A stretch of DNA of 40,387 bases from Shigella phage SFPH2: sequence record MH464253. The stretch is one strand, 5' to 3'. Below, piece after piece: positions 5,186-37,857 of the stretch (position 1 is the first letter of the stretch; each line of letters begins with the position of its first letter). The position numbers and the translations under genes were made by a program. The notes under the pieces were generated by a model. It was not told where the DNA came from and did no database searches. It saw only the letters and a list, made by a program, of their open reading frames with translations.

Positions 5186-5208
5186 CTTCCCTATAGTGAT
5201 AGTTAAGT
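5186..5208 (-). promoter_or_regulatory. Phage RNAP promoter (phiOR position): ACTTAACTATCACTATAGGGAAG
   Basis: Full consensus match between terminase large subunit and gene 19.5. Confidence 0.85.
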
Positions 5209-10662: not shown

Positions 10663-10685
10663 GTTTCCTATAGTGATAGTTTAGT
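10663..10685 (-). promoter_or_regulatory. Phage RNAP promoter (phi17 position): ACTAAACTATCACTATAGGAAAC
   Basis: Consensus match overlapping gp16 stop, upstream of tail fibre. Confidence 0.85.
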
Positions 10686-13600
10686 CCTTGATGTGAATAC
10701 CTTGTTCCTCAAAGGTTCCCAGTAGGAGCTTCTGAGTAATCGGGTCGTTCGGGACTAGCTCGCGGAAAGTGTTATACATCCCGGTCATGTAGTCTCGTTC
10801 GTTCACTCTGGTATCAGCCTTCAAGTATCCAGCCAAGTTGTAGGCCGAAGCACCAACGTTAGCGGCGTATCCAAAAGCAGGAACCTGCTCAAGGAAGTTA
10901 CCGACCACATTCATCACCGGGTCACTCTTCGCAGCGCCATAGGTAATAGCACGTTCAGGTTTCTCGGTAGGTGAGCGCGGAAGGATTGACGAGCGGAGCA
11001 TCTTAGTGTCCTCATACCCAGCGATTCCACCCAGAATGTTGGCTACCCCAAGAGGACCACCTAAGTGGGAGCTACGGGACAGAGCCGCATAGCCAATCAT
11101 TGTCGGGTTAAGGGCTTGCTTCAGATACTCACGGTCACGACCGTCCTGCATAGCGTAGGCCTTGATGTGCGCCTGAGCCATGTAGTACATTCCAGCCAGA
11201 CCCATAGACATAACCGTTGATAGTGCAGCGTCCATCGCTCGGTTGTTCTTGGTGGCATTGTAGAAGGTACGCATGGTTCGACCGTTGATGGACTTGATAA
11301 CGAAGTTCTTAAACTGCAAGACAGTCTTCGCCATCGGTCCATACGCCTTGGCATCCATGTTGCTCAGCTTGTGCGGACGAATCATGGTCTCGTCAGCGAT
11401 GGCATCACCCATACGCCAGAGGTCCATAGCCCTTGGGTCCTGACTGAACGCCTTCTTATCCTTGATGGTGTACTTCCCGTCTGGGCCACGAGTCACTGAC
11501 TCACGGATGAGGGACTTAATGCCCTTCCACTGCTCGTCCGAAATACCAGCGGTCTTCAACCAGCGGTCATCAAACTTACGCTTACTTCCAGTCAGGCTGT
11601 GCTCCACGATGTCAGACAGGAAGCCTTGACGTCCAGCATCCAGCAGGTAGTTCGTCGTGCCGTTCAGGACCTTCGTAAACGGAGAGCGGACCGCAAGTTC
11701 ACCAGTGTAATACTTGGCAGAACCCAAAGCCGTAGCTGCTGGTTTACTCAAGGCACTGTACGCCCGCAGGCGGTCTATGACATCCTGTTTTGACGGACGG
11801 ATTGAGTCGTCCAGTTCCTTACCGAAGATAACATTGTGCAGGTCCTTAATCTCTGATGCCCCTACCTTCTTGTTACGGAAGGCTAGGTCACGGAACATAG
11901 GTACTCCATGTAGCAATGCACGAACGTTACCACGAGCCAGCATACCACCAATCTCCGTTAAATTCTGAACACCCATGTAGGCATTCTTAGCGAAGAAGGA
12001 CAGGTCTGTCATTGTGCGCATCACTGTAGCAAAGGCAGCATCGTCTGCACCATCACGTCGAGCACGACCAGTCAGAATCTTCAGGGTGTCACGCAGTGTT
12101 GAGACTTCACCCTTCAGTTTACCGTCATCACCAGCACGGTTCATCAGGGTCTCTACTGCGTCCTTCATCTCCTTCGTGGTCTTACCTGTCCCAGCCATGA
12201 TAGCAATGTCCCCATTGACTCGACGGTTGTACGCCGGGACAATCTTATCCATGTCCCACTCACGGAGGCTGTTCACACTGAACGGTTGACCGTTTGGCAG
12301 GATGATAGACATATCGCTATCGAACAGGTTACGGGCCTCAAGGAAGTTGTTGTTCTCCAGACCCACCAGACCGTTGATGTTCTCTTCCATGACAGACGAG
12401 CGCTCGAATAGGTCGGTGTGAGAGATACCGTAAGCCTTATCGTTGGCGTACTTCTCGACCGCAGCCGCGAGTCCTTCTGGAGTCAGATTAGGGTCAGCTT
12501 CCATCAAGGCCTCATCCACCCGCGCTTTGACCTCAGGTCTTGACGCATAGCTCGTTAGCCAAGACTTCTTGATTGCCTCCTGTAGCGCCTCAGGGCTTCC
12601 AAGCTCCTTGATGTACAGCTCCTTCATCTGGTTGCTGTAGACGTGAGGAACGTATGTCCCCTTGAAGCGGCTGCCGGGGAAGATAGACTTAGCGTCCACC
12701 CGACCGAACATCGCGGGGTTCTCCATCATCTCACGCTTGGCGTCGAACTGGTTCTTCAGCAGGTCGTAGACCTTCAGTTCGCCCGGAGTAAGCTCAGACT
12801 TCAGGTTTCCACTTCCGTCCTCGATAGCCAGAGCTACACGCTGGTAGATGTCCTGACGGAAAGCCCCTGTGTCCCGGTTGAAGTTGGTCTGGAAGTACGG
12901 GTCCTTCAGAGCCTCAGTCACCGCATCGTCGATGTCGTTGTAGAACCGATGGTCCACTGCACGAAGTCGCTCGAATACGTCTGACGCTGTAGTCCCAATC
13001 TTCCCGCTCGCACCCGACTGCATACCTGTAGGGGAACGCACCAAGTCAGCGGCAAGTCCGCGAATCTCAGGGTTCTCAGACCTCAAGAGTTTCAAGCCAA
13101 TCTCGGTAAGTCCACCAAGGTTTACACCAGCAGCAGCACGCTCAGGCTCAATCACCTCGTCGAAGACTTGGCGTGTCTTAGGGTTCAGAGGGTTCTCACC
13201 AATCAGGATTGAGCCATCTTCCAGTCGAACACTTCCCGGCTCGTTCGGAACGTCAGCAAACTTAACGCCTTGGTGACTGAAGGTCTGCTCTCCTTCACGG
13301 ATTGGTAGACGCGACAGGTCCTGACCGTCAACGTTACGAGCAGTCTCACGTGCCTCAAGACGTGTAGCTGGACCAGCGAACTCATTGGTAGACTTTCCAA
13401 GAGCCTTGCCAAGAGCGTCACCGATAGCAGTCATGCCACCACCGAAGAGCGCACCGCCCATAATTGCCTCAGACACGTGAGCATCGCCACCAGCAACAGA
13501 GGTACGAGCAATCTCAGACGCGCCAGCCAACGCACCAGACTGAGCAGCCACGGTGAACATCTTGTTAACCAGCTTACCGCCTTTACCTACCTGTCCGGCA

Positions 13601-14577
13601 ATAGGAACATAGGTCAGTGGGTCCACTCCAGCGCCAATCACACCAGCCGCAAGTTGAGCGCCAGTCCCGGCCTTAGCCTTCTCAGCGTCTAACTTCTGGT
13701 TCTCCAGCGCCAAGTTAATCAGCTCGGTCAGATTCTGAGGCGAACCACCAGTGATTACTCCGTAATACTGAGGAAGTACCCCAGCGTTACGAATCTGGTC
13801 TAACTCCTCGCGGGACCACTTGTGGTTATTCCAGCGGGTAGGGTTAAACACATCGCCAATGACATCGAGCGAGTCCTCAGTCTGACCAGCGCGGACAGCC
13901 ACGCCCACCAGAGAGTTCTTCACTTCAGCCTCAGCAGCTCCGCCGAAGCCGAACCATGTAGAGCGGTCAGCTCTTTGGTCCAGCGTCTCGCCAGTTGACT
14001 TATAGAACATCTCTCCGAAAGACTCGTTAGGAGCCTCAGGTTCCTGACCTTCGATGTTCATACCAGTAACGCCCGGAAGGTTCTCTCCAAGAGCGACTTT
14101 AGGTTTAGCCTTCAAGCCCTCCGTGAGAGCGTCGAAGACGTTAGCGCTTACTGGTGGGGTCTTTGGGGTGATGCCTCCAGCACCACTTAAGGCGCGAGAG
14201 ACTCCGAGCTTGTAGACCTCAGGGTCATACCGGGAACCAGTCTCGTGGTAGCCGATAGCCTCAGACAGAGAGGCGAGGACATCAGGGTTCGTCAGGTCGA
14301 TACTTTGGGACGCTGGAATGCCAGTGGCAGCCACAACAGAGTCGATGTAAGACTGAGTGTCGTTCTCGCTAGGTGGTGCCCATCGGTTGATAATCTTCTC
14401 GATTGAGTCGTAGCCTTGGCGACCGTAGGACATCAGGTTCTTCGCCAGAGCGCGGACGCCAGAGTCAGGAGTGTCGAACGTTACGAAAGACCCATCGTCT
14501 CCTGTAGCTCCTTCCCACTGGTCTTTGGAAACACGAATGTTCCCGATGTTATTGTTGCGAATACCACGAGTCGCCAT
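10681..14577 (-). CDS. gp16: Internal virion (core) protein D, gp16-type, with divergent N-terminal ~190 aa
   Basis: 1298 aa; from ...TWFGFGGAAEAEV... onward colinear with T7 gp16 (PATRLEARETARN, SPTGMQSGASGK, ARRVNGDIAIMAGTGKTTKE); N-terminus lacks the T7 lytic-transglycosylase motifs as recalled. Confidence 0.92.
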   Translation of the reverse strand: MATRGIRNNNIGNIRVSKDQWEGATGDDGSFVTFDTPDSGVRALAKNLMSYGRQGYDSIEKIINRWAPPSENDTQSYIDSVVAATGIPASQSIDLTNPDVLASLSEAIGYHETGSRYDPEVYKLGVSRALSGAGGITPKTPPVSANVFDALTEGLKAKPKVALGENLPGVTGMNIEGQEPEAPNESFGEMFYKSTGETLDQRADRSTWFGFGGAAEAEVKNSLVGVAVRAGQTEDSLDVIGDVFNPTRWNNHKWSREELDQIRNAGVLPQYYGVITGGSPQNLTELINLALENQKLDAEKAKAGTGAQLAAGVIGAGVDPLTYVPIAGQVGKGGKLVNKMFTVAAQSGALAGASEIARTSVAGGDAHVSEAIMGGALFGGGMTAIGDALGKALGKSTNEFAGPATRLEARETARNVDGQDLSRLPIREGEQTFSHQGVKFADVPNEPGSVRLEDGSILIGENPLNPKTRQVFDEVIEPERAAAGVNLGGLTEIGLKLLRSENPEIRGLAADLVRSPTGMQSGASGKIGTTASDVFERLRAVDHRFYNDIDDAVTEALKDPYFQTNFNRDTGAFRQDIYQRVALAIEDGSGNLKSELTPGELKVYDLLKNQFDAKREMMENPAMFGRVDAKSIFPGSRFKGTYVPHVYSNQMKELYIKELGSPEALQEAIKKSWLTSYASRPEVKARVDEALMEADPNLTPEGLAAAVEKYANDKAYGISHTDLFERSSVMEENINGLVGLENNNFLEARNLFDSDMSIILPNGQPFSVNSLREWDMDKIVPAYNRRVNGDIAIMAGTGKTTKEMKDAVETLMNRAGDDGKLKGEVSTLRDTLKILTGRARRDGADDAAFATVMRTMTDLSFFAKNAYMGVQNLTEIGGMLARGNVRALLHGVPMFRDLAFRNKKVGASEIKDLHNVIFGKELDDSIRPSKQDVIDRLRAYSALSKPAATALGSAKYYTGELAVRSPFTKVLNGTTNYLLDAGRQGFLSDIVEHSLTGSKRKFDDRWLKTAGISDEQWKGIKSLIRESVTRGPDGKYTIKDKKAFSQDPRAMDLWRMGDAIADETMIRPHKLSNMDAKAYGPMAKTVLQFKNFVIKSINGRTMRTFYNATKNNRAMDAALSTVMSMGLAGMYYMAQAHIKAYAMQDGRDREYLKQALNPTMIGYAALSRSSHLGGPLGVANILGGIAGYEDTKMLRSSILPRSPTEKPERAITYGAAKSDPVMNVVGNFLEQVPAFGYAANVGASAYNLAGYLKADTRVNERDYMTGMYNTFRELVPNDPITQKLLLGTFEEQGIHIKD

Positions 14578-16876: not shown

Positions 16877-17464
16877 TTAGCTGTGACCTGTAGGTGTGCC
16901 TTTAGCAGCACTAATTGGAGCAGCACCGCCAGACGGCTTAGCGCCAGAGATAGAGCTACCCATAGCGTAACCCTGCATACCAGCAGAGGTGACGTTAAGT
17001 GCATGAGCCAGAGGGCTGGTCTTGATGATTTTAGCCTGACCCTTGATGGCAGACTTGGTGTTCTCGATGTTGGCAATACGGTTCCCGAAGATAGCCGCAT
17101 AATCGCGGTTGTAACTTTCGGTGATGCCAGCACGTTCTTTCACAGTGTCTCCTTCCACTGAGCGCTCAATGCGTTTCATGGAGTTTCCTTCAAGACCGGA
17201 CTCAGCCACTGCTGCACGGACCATGCCCTGATTGCGAATACCGTTCAGGGTTGTCTCTGTCAGCTCAGCGACCTGTTGCTCTTTAAGGTCTCGCTCCTGC
17301 ATCGTCAGGTTGGCGTCAGAGTAGTTCATCTGCTTAATCATCTCCTGAGCCTGTCTGTTCTGAGCGTCGATGGCAGCACCCTCAGCCTTGGCCTGTTGAG
17401 ATGCGGACATAGTGGCCCCGGCTACAGCCAGTATACCCATTCCGATACTTACGGGTTCACACAT
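16877..17464 (-). CDS. gp14: Internal virion (core) protein B
   Basis: 195 aa; size and composition match T7 gp14 (196 aa, starts MCW/MCE, Ala/Gln-rich). Confidence 0.85.
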   Translation of the reverse strand: MCEPVSIGMGILAVAGATMSASQQAKAEGAAIDAQNRQAQEMIKQMNYSDANLTMQERDLKEQQVAELTETTLNGIRNQGMVRAAVAESGLEGNSMKRIERSVEGDTVKERAGITESYNRDYAAIFGNRIANIENTKSAIKGQAKIIKTSPLAHALNVTSAGMQGYAMGSSISGAKPSGGAAPISAAKGTPTGHS

Positions 17465-17919
17465 ACGTCCTCCTTAGAGATTGTGAATAGTTGAAAACGC
17501 TCACCTGTTACCGGACTAATAGTCACCTCAGGGTGAAACTTAGCTCCCAGCAACCGCAAGAATTTAATGTGAGACTTGTTGCCTGACCACACGTAGTTCC
17601 AGATGGTCCCGTATTGGTCTAACATTAAGTCCCTGTACTCAGAGATGCGCTGAATGAACTCACGCTTGTCTTTAGGACGTAACCTTTCGACAAGACTTGA
17701 AGTCAGGAACCACACGTTATCTCCTTGGTTCCCTCCATAGGCAAACACTTCGCCTACGCCATTCGTCAAAACCACAGATGACGGAGTTAGGTGACTGAGC
17801 ATTCTGTCTGTCAGACCCTTGGTCGACCCGAAGTTTGCCATGCACTCATTAACGTCATCCTGTGAGAGATGTCCCAATAGGTAGTGAACATCTGGTTCAG
17901 TAGCCTTACGAATATACAT
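17449..17919 (-). CDS. gp13: gp13-position virion assembly/internal protein
   Basis: 156 aa ORF between phi13-position promoter and gp14; assigned by synteny. Confidence 0.7.
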   Translation of the reverse strand: MYIRKATEPDVHYLLGHLSQDDVNECMANFGSTKGLTDRMLSHLTPSSVVLTNGVGEVFAYGGNQGDNVWFLTSSLVERLRPKDKREFIQRISEYRDLMLDQYGTIWNYVWSGNKSHIKFLRLLGAKFHPEVTISPVTGERFQLFTISKEDVCVNP

Positions 17920-17947: not shown

Positions 17948-17970
17948 AGTCCCTATAGTGATAGTTAAGT
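17948..17970 (-). promoter_or_regulatory. Phage RNAP promoter (phi13 position): ACTTAACTATCACTATAGGGACT
   Basis: Consensus match between gp12 and gp13. Confidence 0.85.
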
Positions 17971-20375: not shown

Positions 20376-20942
20376 TTAGTCTCGACCGATGTCAGACATC
20401 ATGTTGTAGCGCCCGGTGTCCATCTCGTACTCCATCACCTGCTGGTACAGCTCTGCTTCCTGCTCCCGCAGATAGGCTTCAGACTCTGGGCTTCCGAAGA
20501 ACTTAGCGTTGAACTCACGGCTTGCCTTGGTAACGATGTAGTCCCGGAAGACCACAGGCATCTCTGAGAACGGCTTCATCTCCACCAGCTCGACTGTAAT
20601 CGGTCCAGTGAATGTTGTCGACTGAGTGCTGAGGTCATAGAGATAGCCACCCATATTACTGTAGTAGCTGGTAGCACCAGCAGTCATGACACGGAGGTAA
20701 GACGGGAGGAATCGAATCCTTTGGTCTTGGACATCCGGTGTTAGGACAGCGGCCTCGTTGATGTTAAAGTTCCAGCCTTTAGCTTGGACCTGACGATTGA
20801 CTCGATGTAGGATGCGCTGAGCGTTCGATACGTCTGCGTTACCTTCATCAAGCTGTAGGACTGCTGGTTCACCGATAGCAGCCAGCATATCGTTAACAGC
20901 ATCCAAGTCGTCATTAGCGTTAAGCGGAATGTATTGAGCCAT
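20376..20942 (-). CDS. gp11: Tail tubular protein A
   Basis: 188 aa; AVNDMLAAIGEP...GW.FNI.E...IVTKASR.FN..FFG.PE matches T7 gp11. Confidence 0.93.
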   Translation of the reverse strand: MAQYIPLNANDDLDAVNDMLAAIGEPAVLQLDEGNADVSNAQRILHRVNRQVQAKGWNFNINEAAVLTPDVQDQRIRFLPSYLRVMTAGATSYYSNMGGYLYDLSTQSTTFTGPITVELVEMKPFSEMPVVFRDYIVTKASREFNAKFFGSPESEAYLREQEAELYQQVMEYEMDTGRYNMMSDIGRD

Positions 20943-20956
20943 AGGCCCTCCTTAAG

Positions 20957-20996
20957 CAAAAAACCCCTCAAGCACCCGAAGGCACCCAAGGGGTTT
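20957..20996 (-). terminator. Intrinsic terminator (Tphi-like) after capsid gene
   Basis: Minus-strand AACCCCTTGGGTGCCTTCGGGTGCTTGAGGGGTTTTTTGC: GC-rich stem with G-U wobbles then U6; close to recalled T7 Tphi. Confidence 0.8.
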
Positions 20997-20999
20997 CAA

Positions 21000-21290
21000 T
21001 TAGTTTGTGAAAGATACGTTGAAGGAACGCACAGGCGAACCGTCATACCCAACAATCACCAGACCTTCCACGCCAGAGGTGGCCTTGAAGTAGAGACTGT
21101 TGGTTCTACGGGAGTAGCTAACACCATCAGGCGTAGTCACCTCAAGCAGCGACCAATCGGTCACGTCTGAAAGCTCAGGGAAGTCAACCTTCAAGCTGGT
21201 TCCCACCGTAGAACTGTATGTCTCTAAGGTAGGACCCTCTGTAGAGAGGGCCTTAAAGGTCGTTAGCCCGCTGACGCTGCTGTGAAAACC
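21000..21290 (-). CDS. gp10B: Capsid 10B C-terminal extension read in -1 frame from slippery GGTTTTC (minor capsid protein via programmed frameshift)
   Basis: -1 frame open from the GGUUUUC heptamer (plus 21284-21290) across the 10A stop for 94 codons to TAA at 21000. Confidence 0.6.
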   Translation of the reverse strand, partial: GFHSSVSGLTTFKALSTEGPTLETYSSTVGTSLKVDFPELSDVTDWSLLEVTTPDGVSYSRRTNSLYFKATSGVEGLVIVGYDGSPVRSFNVSFTN

Positions 21291-22312
21291 AGTGCGCCTG
21301 CCGCTTCTGGACGCAGACCGCCGTGACCCATAGCGTACTTACCGACAATCAGGTCGCCCTGAGCATCGACGTCGCGGTCACGTTCCAGCGCCAAGTCACG
21401 CAGCTTGACAGTACCAACAGCAGAACGGTGAGAGAACAGGCCCACAACGTTGTCCAGAGCAACCTTAACGGTAGAGCTGGAGGTCGCCGGGAATGCGTGT
21501 TTCTGACCAGAAGCAATGGAGATACCATCGTCACCACGGGTTTCGCCAGCACCACCCTGAGTCAGGTGAGGAACTTCAACCACAACGAAGCCCATTACGT
21601 TACGGATGTTGCCCGTCTCAGGGTCAATCAGCGCAGCGTAGTTAGCAGCGTTAGGCATCAGAGCCGCCAGAATCGCGGAGTAGTTGTCAGGGGTGGTGTA
21701 GAAGTAGCGGTCGCCAGCAGGCACGTAGTTGGAAGTCAGCTTCGCACGTGCGATGGTCAGTTGACCGATGATAGCTTCGCCCAGCTTGGCTGGAGTGTTC
21801 AGGTCGGCTTTTGCACCAACTTCCAGAACTGACGCCTTGCCCAGACCCGCGATGTTCTCGTCGGATGCAGCCGGGAGGTTACACAGAATCGCCATCTCAG
21901 CCAGTACAGCGCCATCAGCAGCGATAGCCAGAGCCTCACCGAGCTGGTTGGAATACTCGCCAGCCACGTCATAGTGGTTCATGGCGTCTTCGATGTCGAA
22001 AATCATCACGTCAGCGGTCAGCAGACCATCAATGGTGATAACCTTCTCAGTGTGTTTGATACCCTTGCGCTTATCGCTCAGGCGCTCACCGGGAGCAAGA
22101 TACACACCTGAGGTGCGACCCATTACCGGGAACTGTGCGGACTTACCGTTCTGAATGGTGCGGACAATATGTTTGTCAGCGGTAACAGAGCGGCGAGTGA
22201 AAGCTGTCAGGACTTCACCAGCGAAGACCTTAAGGAACAGTGCGAGCTGGTCTGCACTAGATTTGCCCTTACCTTGGTCTGCACCAATTTTCTGACCCGG
22301 AACGTTTGCCAT
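21263..22312 (-). CDS. gp10A: Major capsid protein 10A
   Basis: 349 aa; LALFLKVF.GEVLTAF.R.SVT...HTEKVITIDGLLTADV...DIEDAMNHYDV...ALMPNAANYAALIDPE...VGTVKLRDLALER match T7 gp10A. Confidence 0.97.
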   Translation of the reverse strand: MANVPGQKIGADQGKGKSSADQLALFLKVFAGEVLTAFTRRSVTADKHIVRTIQNGKSAQFPVMGRTSGVYLAPGERLSDKRKGIKHTEKVITIDGLLTADVMIFDIEDAMNHYDVAGEYSNQLGEALAIAADGAVLAEMAILCNLPAASDENIAGLGKASVLEVGAKADLNTPAKLGEAIIGQLTIARAKLTSNYVPAGDRYFYTTPDNYSAILAALMPNAANYAALIDPETGNIRNVMGFVVVEVPHLTQGGAGETRGDDGISIASGQKHAFPATSSSTVKVALDNVVGLFSHRSAVGTVKLRDLALERDRDVDAQGDLIVGKYAMGHGGLRPEAAGALVFTAASAG

Positions 22313-22409: not shown

Positions 22410-22432
22410 TCTCCCTATAGTGATAGTTTAGT
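22410..22432 (-). promoter_or_regulatory. Phage RNAP promoter (phi10 position): ACTAAACTATCACTATAGGGAGACC
   Basis: Full consensus; leader begins GGGAGACC and folds 5' stem-loop, SD GGAGA before capsid ATG. Confidence 0.9.
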
Positions 22433-23405: not shown

Positions 23406-23428
23406 TGTTCCTATAGTGATAGTTAAGC
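23406..23428 (-). promoter_or_regulatory. Phage RNAP promoter (phi9 position): CTTAACTATCACTATAGGAACAA
   Basis: Consensus match overlapping portal 3' end. Confidence 0.85.
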
Positions 23429-26224: not shown

Positions 26225-26247
26225 AGTCCCTATAGTGATAGTTTAGT
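26225..26247 (-). promoter_or_regulatory. Phage RNAP promoter (phi6.5 position): ACTAAACTATCACTATAGGGACT
   Basis: Full consensus in the gp6/gp6.5 intergenic region; preceded by GGGCC-loop-GGCCC hairpin (plus 26346-26363). Confidence 0.88.
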
Positions 26248-35211: not shown

Positions 35212-35234
35212 TGTTCCTAAAGTGATAGTTTAGT
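35212..35234 (-). promoter_or_regulatory. Phage RNAP promoter variant (phi2.5 position): ACTAAACTATCACTTTAGGAACA
   Basis: Consensus with one substitution, overlapping gp2 stop, upstream of SSB. Confidence 0.7.
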
Positions 35235-37792: not shown

Positions 37793-37838
37793 GTTAATCA
37801 TGAAGGCCACGACTTTGAGTCATGACCTTGAGTCTAAT
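37793..37838 (-). promoter_or_regulatory. Conserved RNA hairpin D (R1.1-position candidate RNase III site) at 5' end of phi1.1 transcript
   Basis: AAGGUCAUGACU-caa-AGUCGUGGCCUU: 12-bp stem with two G-U wobbles, 3-nt loop. Confidence 0.55.
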
Positions 37839-37857
37839 CCTATAGTGATAGTTTAGA
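37835..37857 (-). promoter_or_regulatory. Phage RNAP promoter (phi1.1 position): CTAAACTATCACTATAGGATTAG
   Basis: Consensus match upstream of gene 1.1, overlapping the stop of the 156-aa ORF. Confidence 0.85.

What the first reader, a model, noticed from the sequence alone, without database searches (positions are those of the whole stretch)
21000..21290. Candidate programmed -1 frameshift producing capsid protein 10B
Seven codons before the 10A stop the sequence CTG GTT TTC contains the heptamer G GUU UUC, and the -1 frame is open from there for 94 codons to a TAA at 21000, immediately followed by the Tphi-like terminator. I recall T7 making 10B by a -1 shift at the same type of site, but the extension here is longer (about 94 versus 53 residues). 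The ORF-track entry 21000..21206 is the distal part of this frame.
Basis: partly seen in the sequence, partly recalled or inferred. Interest (0 to 1): 0.45.

Follow-up and report, generated by a model that had tools for sequence, protein, structure and literature searches.

The report
Capsid gene frameshift adds Ig-like domain
This T7-like phage almost certainly makes a longer, minor version of its main capsid protein by a programmed -1 ribosomal slip at the same site phage T7 uses, adding an Ig-like domain; this is a well-known trick that near-identical phages already have annotated, so it is real but ordinary.

Summary
The heptamer G_GTT_TTC lies in register at window 21290-21284 (- strand), six sense codons before the gene 10A stop. 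The -1 frame is open for 94 codons to TAA at 21002-21000, followed by a Tphi-like terminator. The predicted 10B is 437 aa (46.0 kDa) against 349 aa (36.4 kDa) for 10A.

The window is a Kayfunavirus-type T7-like phage. T7 and K1F carry the same heptamer at the homologous Val-Phe codons. In 81 of 81 related loci the downstream domain lies in the -1 frame of gene 10, its ORF overlaps the slip site, and GTTTTC is invariant. The extension evolves as protein (domain dN/dS 0.07-0.27). It has no in-frame ATG and no conserved start. It folds as a disordered linker plus a seven-strand Ig-like sandwich whose first strand precedes every candidate start.

A branched RNA structure begins about 5 nt after the heptamer. 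It is thermodynamically unusual (z about -3.5) and is supported by covariation in the sister Przondovirus lineage only.

Phage Peacock (95.7% identical extension) and CR8 already annotate this as a joined -1 frameshift CDS, but most records call it a separate small ORF. I found no junction-peptide data. Verdict: interpretation supported, known biology, low interest.

The parts
21263..22312 (-). Gene 10A, the major capsid protein (349 aa, 36.4 kDa), read in the zero frame
   Evidence: ORF list; Pfam PF21703 Gp10A-like, E=1.7e-105; 92-98.6% nt identity to annotated major capsid genes of Kayfunavirus-type phages
21284..21290 (-). Slippery heptamer G_GTT_TTC (Val-Phe codons 342-343 of 10A), the proposed site of tandem -1 tRNA slippage
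   Evidence: Position and register. Identical heptamer at the homologous codons in T7 and K1F. GTT-TTC is invariant in 50 of 50 distinct relatives, while neighbouring synonymous sites vary.
21000..21284 (-). -1 frame extension of 10B: 94 codons plus TAA. The fused product is 437 aa, 46.0 kDa, with junction ...AGALVF|HSSVSGL...
   Evidence: Translation; conserved in 453 phage records by tblastn; always in the -1 frame of gene 10
21225..21284 (-). Linker part of the extension (residues 1 to about 20), predicted disordered, fast-evolving as peptide, and overlapping the RNA structure
   Evidence: AF2 pLDDT below 50 for residues 1-16; linker dN/dS 0.1-1.2 depending on the pair
21003..21224 (-). Ig-like beta-sandwich domain of 10B (extension residues 21-94; phrog_7473, no Pfam family)
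   Evidence: AF2 gives seven strands with pLDDT about 88-90. Best Foldseek match is the lambda gpV C-terminal Ig-like domain 2l04, E=3e-3, TM 0.55. PHROG 7473, E=3e-37. Domain dN/dS 0.07-0.27.
21172..21278 (-). Predicted branched RNA structure (candidate 3' frameshift stimulator). The closing helix starts 5 nt after the heptamer (5' strand 21278-21267, 3' strand 21181-21172). The inner helix 3' strand is at 21195-21185, hairpin A at 21251-21234 and hairpin B at 21233-21202.
   Evidence: MFE -46.5 kcal/mol, z=-3.46, 0 of 200 shuffles as stable. The same architecture appears in the consensus folds of the Kayfunavirus set and the Przondovirus-type set. Covariation is significant only in the latter and uninformative in the window's own clade. 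The outermost helix has an alternative partner in a full-length fold.
20958..20993 (-). Tphi-like intrinsic terminator for the phage RNA polymerase, seven bases after the 10B stop
   Evidence: Sequence read; terminator scan hit; both stem arms and the T-run match T7 Tphi
22410..22427 (-). T7-type late promoter upstream of gene 10 (ACTATCACTATAGGGAGA), which drives the 10A/10B mRNA
   Evidence: Motif found 8 times on the - strand against 0.03 expected; the only perfect copy is here

Best explanation
This is gene 10 of a Kayfunavirus-type T7-like phage, and it encodes two capsid proteins from one mRNA.

Most ribosomes read through G_GUU_UUC and stop six codons later, giving 10A (349 aa). A minority slip back one base while tRNA-Val and tRNA-Phe occupy GUU and UUC, re-pairing on GGU and UUU. 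Those ribosomes then read CAC AGC ... in the -1 frame for 94 codons, giving 10B (437 aa, 46 kDa).

10B is 10A with its last six residues replaced by a flexible linker of about 20 residues and a 73-residue Ig-like beta-sandwich. By analogy with T7 and T3, 10B co-assembles into the shell as a minor species and displays the domain on the capsid surface. There it probably gives weak accessory adhesion to carbohydrate or mucin-like surfaces.

Slippage is probably enhanced by a branched RNA structure whose base starts about 5 nt after the heptamer and which is encoded in the linker region.

What is shown: the sequence anatomy; the homology of the site to T7; the conservation of site and frame; purifying selection on the -1 frame; the lack of an independent start; and the predicted fold.

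What is inferred: that slippage actually occurs, and its efficiency; the stimulatory role of the RNA structure (I put this at about 0.5); and the surface-adhesion function.
For: - The anatomy is as described.
- T7 and K1F have the same heptamer at the homologous ...AGA(L/V)VF codons. T7 frameshifting at G_GUU_UUC is established (Atkins 2016 review, PMC5009743). A -1 shift at TTTTCA in Kvp1 was confirmed by mass spectrometry (PMC2579914). K1F gene10b tolerates a GFP fusion (PMC6277420).
- In 81 of 81 loci the domain ORF is in the -1 frame, overlaps the slip site by at least 31 nt, and GTTTTC is invariant. The first base is G in 47 of 50 distinct sequences.
- Domain dN/dS is 0.07-0.27 in the -1 frame, and the other two frames are full of stops.
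- 51 of 62 distinct sequences have no in-frame ATG before the domain. GTG/TTG candidates sit at different codons in different lineages, with SD duplex energies of +1.2 to -7.2 kcal/mol against -7.3 to -12.6 for real genes here.
- The first beta-strand in the AF2 model (residues 21-26) lies upstream of the window's only candidate starts, at codons 27 and 31.
- All 120 listed database homologues are ORF calls of 64-87 aa on ~40-kb T7-like contigs. The domain is not seen in any other context.
- RNA structure: z=-3.5 to -3.7. In the Przondovirus-type set 99.1% of cells are paired, two adjacent pairs show three fully complementary haplotypes (AC/GU, GU/AC, GC/GC), and 0 of 500 shuffles reach the observed score.
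- Phage Peacock annotates the same gene as a two-piece -1 frameshift CDS.
Against: - There is no protein-level evidence for this extension family in anything I could search. The CR8 'shown to be produced by -1 frameshifting' note is not backed by data in its announcement.
- SH4 virion LC-MS/MS listed only the 36-kDa capsid protein, although its database lacked the extension.
- G_GUU_UUC is a weak slip site by bacterial standards (my own background knowledge, not a tool result), so the yield depends on a stimulator that is unproven here.
- RNA covariation is uninformative in the window's own clade.
- The GA2A/CR8 lineage fold is not unusual (z=-0.33).
- A single alignment across lineages gives no consensus structure.
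- The outer helix has an alternative partner.
- Some relatives carry a TAATG stop/start overlap that could allow separate expression of the extension.
Confidence: 0.85

Rival explanations
1. The distal ORF is an independent small gene ('gp10.1', 64-68 aa), as most GenBank records annotate it. It would be translated from its own GTG (21206) or TTG (21194) start and would not be joined to the capsid protein.
For: Dev2, Ro103C3lw, NS1, SFP20, KP32_195, JA10 and others annotate a stand-alone CDS. The window's TTG at codon 31 has a weak SD-like GGTGGGA upstream (-5.6 kcal/mol).
Against: Start positions differ between lineages and annotators (64 to 87 aa). There is no conserved ATG. SD energies are weaker than for real genes here. 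The -1 frame stays open and in phase back to the heptamer in 81 of 81 loci, which an independent gene would not need. The linker shows purifying selection at moderate divergence (dN/dS 0.11-0.33). Starting at codon 27 or 31 would delete the first beta-strand of the predicted fold.
Confidence: 0.06
2. The extension is made after termination of 10A, by reinitiation or translational coupling near the 10A stop. This would give a stand-alone protein of about 87 aa rather than a fusion.
For: ECG4, L036 and SFP20 have GGGTTAATGACC, a TAATG stop/start overlap with the ATG in the extension frame. ECG4's record starts its CDS there.
Against: The window and most Kayfunavirus relatives have ACG, not ATG, at that codon. 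The Przondovirus-type sequences have no start codon there either. This rival also does not explain the invariant GTTTTC.
Confidence: 0.03
3. The frame change happens at the RNA level: the phage RNA polymerase slips on the T-run and makes a fraction of mRNAs with one base more or fewer, so the ribosome itself does not slip.
For: The site contains a short homopolymer (TTTT), and transcriptional slippage is a known route to two-frame products (Atkins 2016 review, PMC5009743).
Against: The run is only four T. From general knowledge (not tested here), productive transcriptional slippage needs much longer runs. The conserved feature is a heptamer in codon register with a conserved first G (47 of 50), which matters for tRNA re-pairing and not for polymerase slippage. 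The identical T7 site is established as ribosomal.
Confidence: 0.03
4. The -1 ORF is an unexpressed relic, and the heptamer is conserved only because Leu-Val-Phe is needed in 10A and the codons are the preferred ones.
For: The gene has strong codon bias, and several neighbouring codons are also invariant (CTG, CAC). Dinucleotide-level chance cannot be excluded for the heptamer alone.
Against: Domain dN/dS of 0.07-0.27 across lineages with dS above 1 means the frame is translated. The ORF is intact in 81 of 81 loci from several genera. The domain is predicted to fold confidently.
Confidence: 0.02

Closest known systems
Phage T7 gene 10A/10B programmed -1 frameshift (Condron, Atkins and Gesteland 1991; reviewed in PMC5009743)
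   Same: Identical heptamer G_GUU_UUC at the homologous Val-Phe codons a few codons before the 10A stop. The -1 ORF ends just before a Tphi terminator with near-identical stem arms. Gene order is the same: 9, 10, Tphi, 11.
   Different: The T7 extension is 56 codons, matches no Pfam family and is described as not Ig-like (PMC5009743). Here it is 94 codons ending in an Ig-like sandwich. T7's reported stimulator involves CCCC in the terminator more than 200 nt away. Here the candidate stimulator is a local branched structure within about 110 nt.
Phage T3 gene 10B (Ig-like extension added by -1 frameshift; Fraser et al. 2006, cited in PMC5009743 and PMC13320782)
   Same: A -1 frameshift at the end of the major capsid gene appends an Ig-like domain of about 90 residues.
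   Different: The slip site is C_CCA_AAG, two codons further downstream. The T3 domain is Pfam Big_2 (E=4e-10). The window's domain has no Pfam hit and no detectable sequence similarity to T3's (hhalign probability 0.1%).
Escherichia phage Peacock CPT_Peacock_041 and Citrobacter phage CR8 YP_009004195.1 (GenBank joined 'minor capsid protein' CDS)
   Same: Same genus-level group, same heptamer and same extension family (Peacock extension 95.7% identical). Already annotated as produced by a -1 frameshift.
   Different: The annotation is by analogy only. The CR8 announcement reports no frameshift experiment.
Phage K1F gene10b (type Kayfunavirus)
   Same: Same genus and the same G_GTT_TTC at the same codons. 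The -1 product was used to display GFP on the capsid.
   Different: K1F carries a T7-type 48-codon extension (...EEETLTPQQKAARTRAAN...), not the Ig-like module.
Kluyvera phage Kvp1 10B
   Same: A -1 shift on the U-run (TTTTCA) at the end of gene 10, demonstrated by MALDI MS/MS of a 43.6-kDa band (PMC2579914).
   Different: A different, shorter extension (10B calculated at 42.1 kDa). That paper placed a potential pseudoknot 144 bp downstream of the capsid gene.
IS911 three-way-junction frameshift stimulator (mentioned in PMC5009743)
   Same: A branched, non-pseudoknot structure 3' of a -1 slip site, used as a stimulator.
   Different: An unrelated sequence and system. The stimulatory role of the structure found here is untested.

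Membership tests
T7-type gene 10 (10A/10B) programmed -1 ribosomal frameshift | X_XXY_YYZ-type slippery heptamer in zero-frame register near the 3' end of the major capsid gene | tested here: met
   G_GTT_TTC at 21290-21284, with TTC seven codons before the stop
T7-type gene 10 (10A/10B) programmed -1 ribosomal frameshift | Site homologous to the experimentally defined T7 site | tested here: met
   T7 has ...AAGAVVF|KVE* with GGTTTTC; the window has ...AAGALVF|TAASAG* with GGTTTTC
T7-type gene 10 (10A/10B) programmed -1 ribosomal frameshift | -1 ORF open across the heptamer and extending past the 10A stop, conserved in frame among relatives | tested here: met
   94 codons; 81 of 81 loci in the -1 frame, with an overlap of at least 31 nt covering the site
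T7-type gene 10 (10A/10B) programmed -1 ribosomal frameshift | Extension is translated (purifying selection in the -1 frame) | tested here: met
   Domain dN/dS 0.07-0.27; whole extension 0.13-0.35
T7-type gene 10 (10A/10B) programmed -1 ribosomal frameshift | 3' stimulatory RNA element | tested here: inconclusive
   A branched structure starts 5 nt after the site, z=-3.5. Covariation supports the analogous structure in the Przondovirus-type set but is uninformative in the window's clade. There is no common consensus across lineages.
T7-type gene 10 (10A/10B) programmed -1 ribosomal frameshift | Two capsid species with a common N-terminus, and a junction peptide | not testable with these tools
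   This needs SDS-PAGE or LC-MS/MS. The only related proteomics (SH4) used a database without the extension.
Phage Ig-like domains appended to structural proteins by frameshift (Fraser et al. 2006 class) | Ig-like beta-sandwich fold at the C-terminus of a virion protein | tested here: met
   The AF2 model has seven strands with pLDDT about 88-90. The best PDB match is the lambda gpV Ig-like domain, followed by filamin Ig repeats and N4 capsid chains, but no hit has E<=1e-3, so support is moderate.
Phage Ig-like domains appended to structural proteins by frameshift (Fraser et al. 2006 class) | Sequence membership of a recognised Ig-like family (Big_2, I-set or FN3) | tested here: not met
   No Pfam hit; no similarity to the T3 Big_2 extension; the only match is phrog_7473, 'unknown function'
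Independent small gene 'gp10.1' | Conserved start codon with a Shine-Dalgarno sequence | tested here: not met
   No in-frame ATG in 51 of 62 distinct sequences; alternative starts are not positionally conserved; SD energies are weak

The most novel reading that the evidence does not exclude
The slip site is a fixed docking point at which at least three unrelated C-terminal modules have been exchanged among Studiervirinae: the T7/K1F-type tail, the T3 Big_2 domain, and this phrog_7473 Ig-like domain. The phrog_7473 module may travel with its own built-in stimulator, a roughly 105-nt three-way-junction RNA encoded in the 'linker'. In that linker, RNA pairing rather than peptide sequence would be the selected trait, because amino-acid-changing substitutions (Thr to Val or Ala, Ser to Pro) are compensatory in the helix.
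Probability: 0.35. Interest if true: 0.4.

Novelty: already known. Interest (0 to 1): 0.2.

Why it matters
The main value is for annotation. Most of the several hundred public records that carry this module call it a stand-alone 'hypothetical protein' or 'minor capsid protein' of 64-87 aa, with arbitrary GTG/TTG starts. A few even annotate a spurious 'XRE regulator' on the opposite strand. The comparative evidence says it should instead be a two-piece -1 frameshift CDS fused to gene 10.

There is also a practical use. As in T7 and K1F, the 10B C-terminus is a natural low-copy display site on the capsid for phage engineering.

Finally, the conserved RNA structure in the linker gives a testable candidate for the poorly understood 3' stimulator of gene 10 frameshifting. 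None of this changes the existing understanding of how these phages work.

Tried and rejected
- I tried using the length of the -1 open frame as a chance test. It is uninformative, because many genes here have long -1 open stretches where the next gene lies in that frame.
- One codon-aware alignment of all 63 distinct sequences gave essentially no consensus RNA structure (-1.6 kcal/mol). The hairpins are offset by 2-3 nt between lineages, so I analysed lineages separately.
- The GA2A/CR8 lineage fold is not more stable than shuffles (z=-0.33).
- An Rfam scan of 20900-21400 gave only sub-threshold noise.
- Pfam on the extension gave nothing.
- A PDB sequence search with the family profile gave only a designed protein at E=0.036.
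- hhalign against the T3 extension gave no similarity.
- I looked for in-frame fusions of the domain to a capsid protein, which would be Rosetta-stone evidence. None appeared among the 120 listed homologues.
- I looked for experimental proof in the CR8 announcement, the SH1-SH5 paper, the vB_YenP_AP5 genome paper, the KN1-1/KN3-1/KN4-1 Klebsiella phage paper and a Kayfunavirus search. None addresses this extension.
- My first K1F fetch used the wrong coordinates and was repeated.
- One literature query failed on a term that was too short, and one structure string was a character short.

Full report
**What is in the sequence.** The genes in this window run on the - strand. Gene 10A occupies 22312..21263 (349 aa) and matches Pfam Gp10A-like at E=1.7e-105. 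The single GGTTTTC in the gene lies at 21290..21284 in register G_GTT_TTC. It is followed by six sense codons and TAA. Re-reading the final C in the -1 frame gives 94 codons (HSSVSGL...VSFTN) up to TAA at 21002..21000. The predicted fusion is 437 aa and 46.0 kDa, against 36.4 kDa for 10A. A hairpin and T-run at 20993..20958 has both stem arms matching T7 Tphi. Gene 11 starts at 20942. A perfect copy of the phage promoter motif lies just upstream of gene 10.

**Is it more than chance?** The length of the -1 ORF alone proves nothing in this genome. Many genes are followed by long -1 open stretches because the next gene lies in that frame. Three facts do discriminate. Only nine in-register slippery heptamers occur in about 12,000 codons, and this is the only one near a gene's end. 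The -1 frame is open across the heptamer. The extension contains no in-frame ATG at all.

**Identity of the phage and comparison with relatives.** The region is 92-98.6% identical to Kayfunavirus-type phages such as Enterobacter EP1, Cronobacter Dev2 and Citrobacter SH4. The extension peptide is found in 453 phage records by tblastn. These include Przondovirus (KP32-like, about 45% identity over all 94 residues), Pektosvirus and Ningirsuvirus.

I fetched 81 loci that contain both the 10A C-terminus and the domain. In all 81 the domain is in the -1 frame of gene 10, its ORF reaches back over the slip site (overlap of at least 31 nt), and GTTTTC is present. Among 50 distinct sequences the Val-Phe codons are always GTT-TTC, and the preceding base is G in 47. 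Neighbouring Ala and Gly codons use up to three synonymous forms. This last point is only moderately informative, because the gene has strong codon bias.

T7 and K1F have the same heptamer at the homologous codons but carry a different, T7-type extension of 56 and 48 codons. T3 uses C_CCA_AAG two codons downstream and adds a Big_2 domain. The slip site is therefore shared with T7, while the appended module belongs to a third type.

**Is the extension translated, and from where?** Nei-Gojobori estimates in the -1 frame give dN/dS of 0.07-0.27 for the domain part, in pairs whose dS ranges from 0.16 to above 1. For the first ~29 codons the value is 0.11-0.33 at moderate divergence and rises towards 1 between lineages. 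The other two frames are full of stops.

Candidate internal starts are not conserved. 51 of 62 distinct sequences have no ATG before the domain. GTG/TTG candidates fall at codons 13, 20, 21, 23, 24, 25, 26, 27 or 31 depending on lineage. Their SD duplex energies (+1.2 to -7.2 kcal/mol) are weaker than those of genes 8-12 here (-7.3 to -12.6). Gene callers accordingly give products of 64 to 87 aa for the same ORF.

AlphaFold2 with a 52-sequence alignment predicts residues 1-16 as disordered and residues 21-93 as a seven-strand sandwich (pLDDT about 88-90). The first strand (21-26) lies upstream of the window's only candidate starts, at codons 27 and 31. This argues against the stand-alone 'gp10.1' reading.

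Foldseek places the fold among Ig-like domains. The best match is the lambda gpV C-terminal domain (E=3e-3, TM 0.55), followed by filamin repeats and phage N4 capsid chains. No match reaches E<=1e-3. There is no Pfam hit and no similarity to the T3 Big_2 extension. The family is phrog_7473, 'unknown function'.

**Candidate stimulator.** The 118 nt after the heptamer fold into a branched structure. A closing helix starts 5 nt after the site. Inside it are an inner helix and two hairpins. The MFE is -46.5 kcal/mol with z=-3.46, and 0 of 200 shuffles fold as well.

The Kayfunavirus set (17 sequences) and the Przondovirus-type set (40 sequences) give the same architecture at the same distance from the site. 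In the Przondovirus-type set 99.1% of cells are paired and every common polymorphism inside the helices preserves pairing. Two adjacent pairs of the long hairpin occur as three fully complementary haplotypes. None of 500 shuffles reaches the observed covariation score or percentage paired. Those changes alter amino acids (Thr/Val/Ala and Ser/Pro), which suggests that RNA pairing is the constrained trait in the linker.

The caveats are substantial. In the window's own clade the sequences are too similar for covariation to be informative. The GA2A/CR8 lineage fold is not unusual (z=-0.33). No single consensus spans the lineages. In a full-length fold the outermost helix switches to another partner. 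Rfam has no matching family. I therefore treat the stimulator as plausible, at about 0.5, and not established.

**What is already known.** Frameshifting at G_GUU_UUC in T7 gene 10 is textbook, and the T3 extension is described as Ig-like (PMC5009743). Kvp1 10B was proven by mass spectrometry (PMC2579914). K1F gene10b has been used for GFP display (PMC6277420).

For this exact module, Escherichia phage Peacock (95.7% identical extension) annotates a two-piece 'minor capsid protein' CDS citing Citrobacter phage CR8. The CR8 announcement contains no frameshift experiment. SH4 virion proteomics could not have detected 10B, because the ORF was not in the search database. I found no paper reporting the junction peptide for this family.

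**Function.** By analogy only, Ig-like capsid appendages are proposed to give weak accessory adhesion; the Peru-2 preprint notes that the predicted Ig-like domain of T3's extension interacts with mucins (PMC13320782). One natural relative (L022) has lost the distal half of the domain, which suggests it is dispensable. That matches my own recollection, which I did not check here, that T7 10B is non-essential.

**Verdict.** This is known biology that near-identical phages already have annotated, so interest is low (0.2). The residual value lies in correcting widespread mis-annotation and in the testable RNA structure.

Noticed in passing
L022 (IMGVR_UViG_2974604219), about 1495-1775: A relative keeps the heptamer and the first 53 extension codons (96% identical). 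The rest of the Ig-like domain and the Tphi region are replaced by unrelated sequence, and the -1 ORF then reads a hydrophobic stretch (EWFFLLKVRMIMFYLL...). This looks like a natural truncation and hints that the domain is dispensable.
   Followed up: partly
L011 (ECG4), L036 and L004 (SFP20); alignment A3 columns 26-36; window equivalent 21268-21258: Some relatives read GGGTTAATGACC, so the 10A stop TAA overlaps an ATG in the extension frame (TAATG). This could allow termination-reinitiation and a stand-alone 87-aa product. The window has ACG at that codon.
   Followed up: partly
window 20934..21170 (+): A 78-aa ORF lies antisense to the 10B extension. The equivalent ORF is annotated 'XRE family transcriptional regulator' in the EcpYZU01 and IMM-002 records. 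This is probably a spurious call opposite a real coding region.
   Followed up: no
window - strand: 5186-5203, 10663-10680, 17948-17965, 22410-22427, 23406-23423, 26225-26242, 35212-35229, 37835-37852: The phage RNA polymerase promoter-like motif ACTATCACTATAGGGAGA recurs 8 times on the coding strand, against 0.03 expected. The only perfect copy precedes gene 10.
   Followed up: partly
L087 (K1F, NC_007456), about 1260-1420: The type Kayfunavirus K1F has the same heptamer but a T7-type 48-codon extension. Extension modules have therefore been exchanged at a fixed slip site within one genus.
   Followed up: partly
window 21281-21268 with about 21160-21145 (- strand): In a fold of the whole 327-nt stretch from the slip site to the terminator, the sequence right after the heptamer (AGCAGCG...) pairs with CGCUGCU in the Ser-Leu-Leu codons about 130 nt downstream, not with the CCCUGAGCU partner. 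This gives two competing closing helices around the same inner junction.
   Followed up: no
window 14167 (- strand, in the 1298-aa gene 14577..10681) and 17773 (in gene 17919..17449): Two other in-register slippery heptamers occur deep inside other genes: C_CCA_AAG (the T3-type site) and G_GTT_TTG. I did not examine their -1 frames.
   Followed up: no
window 21263..22312: The SH4 paper lists its major capsid gene at 21263-22312 on the forward strand, the same two numbers as gene 10A here on the reverse strand. This is probably a coincidence of numbering; I could not explain it.
   Followed up: no
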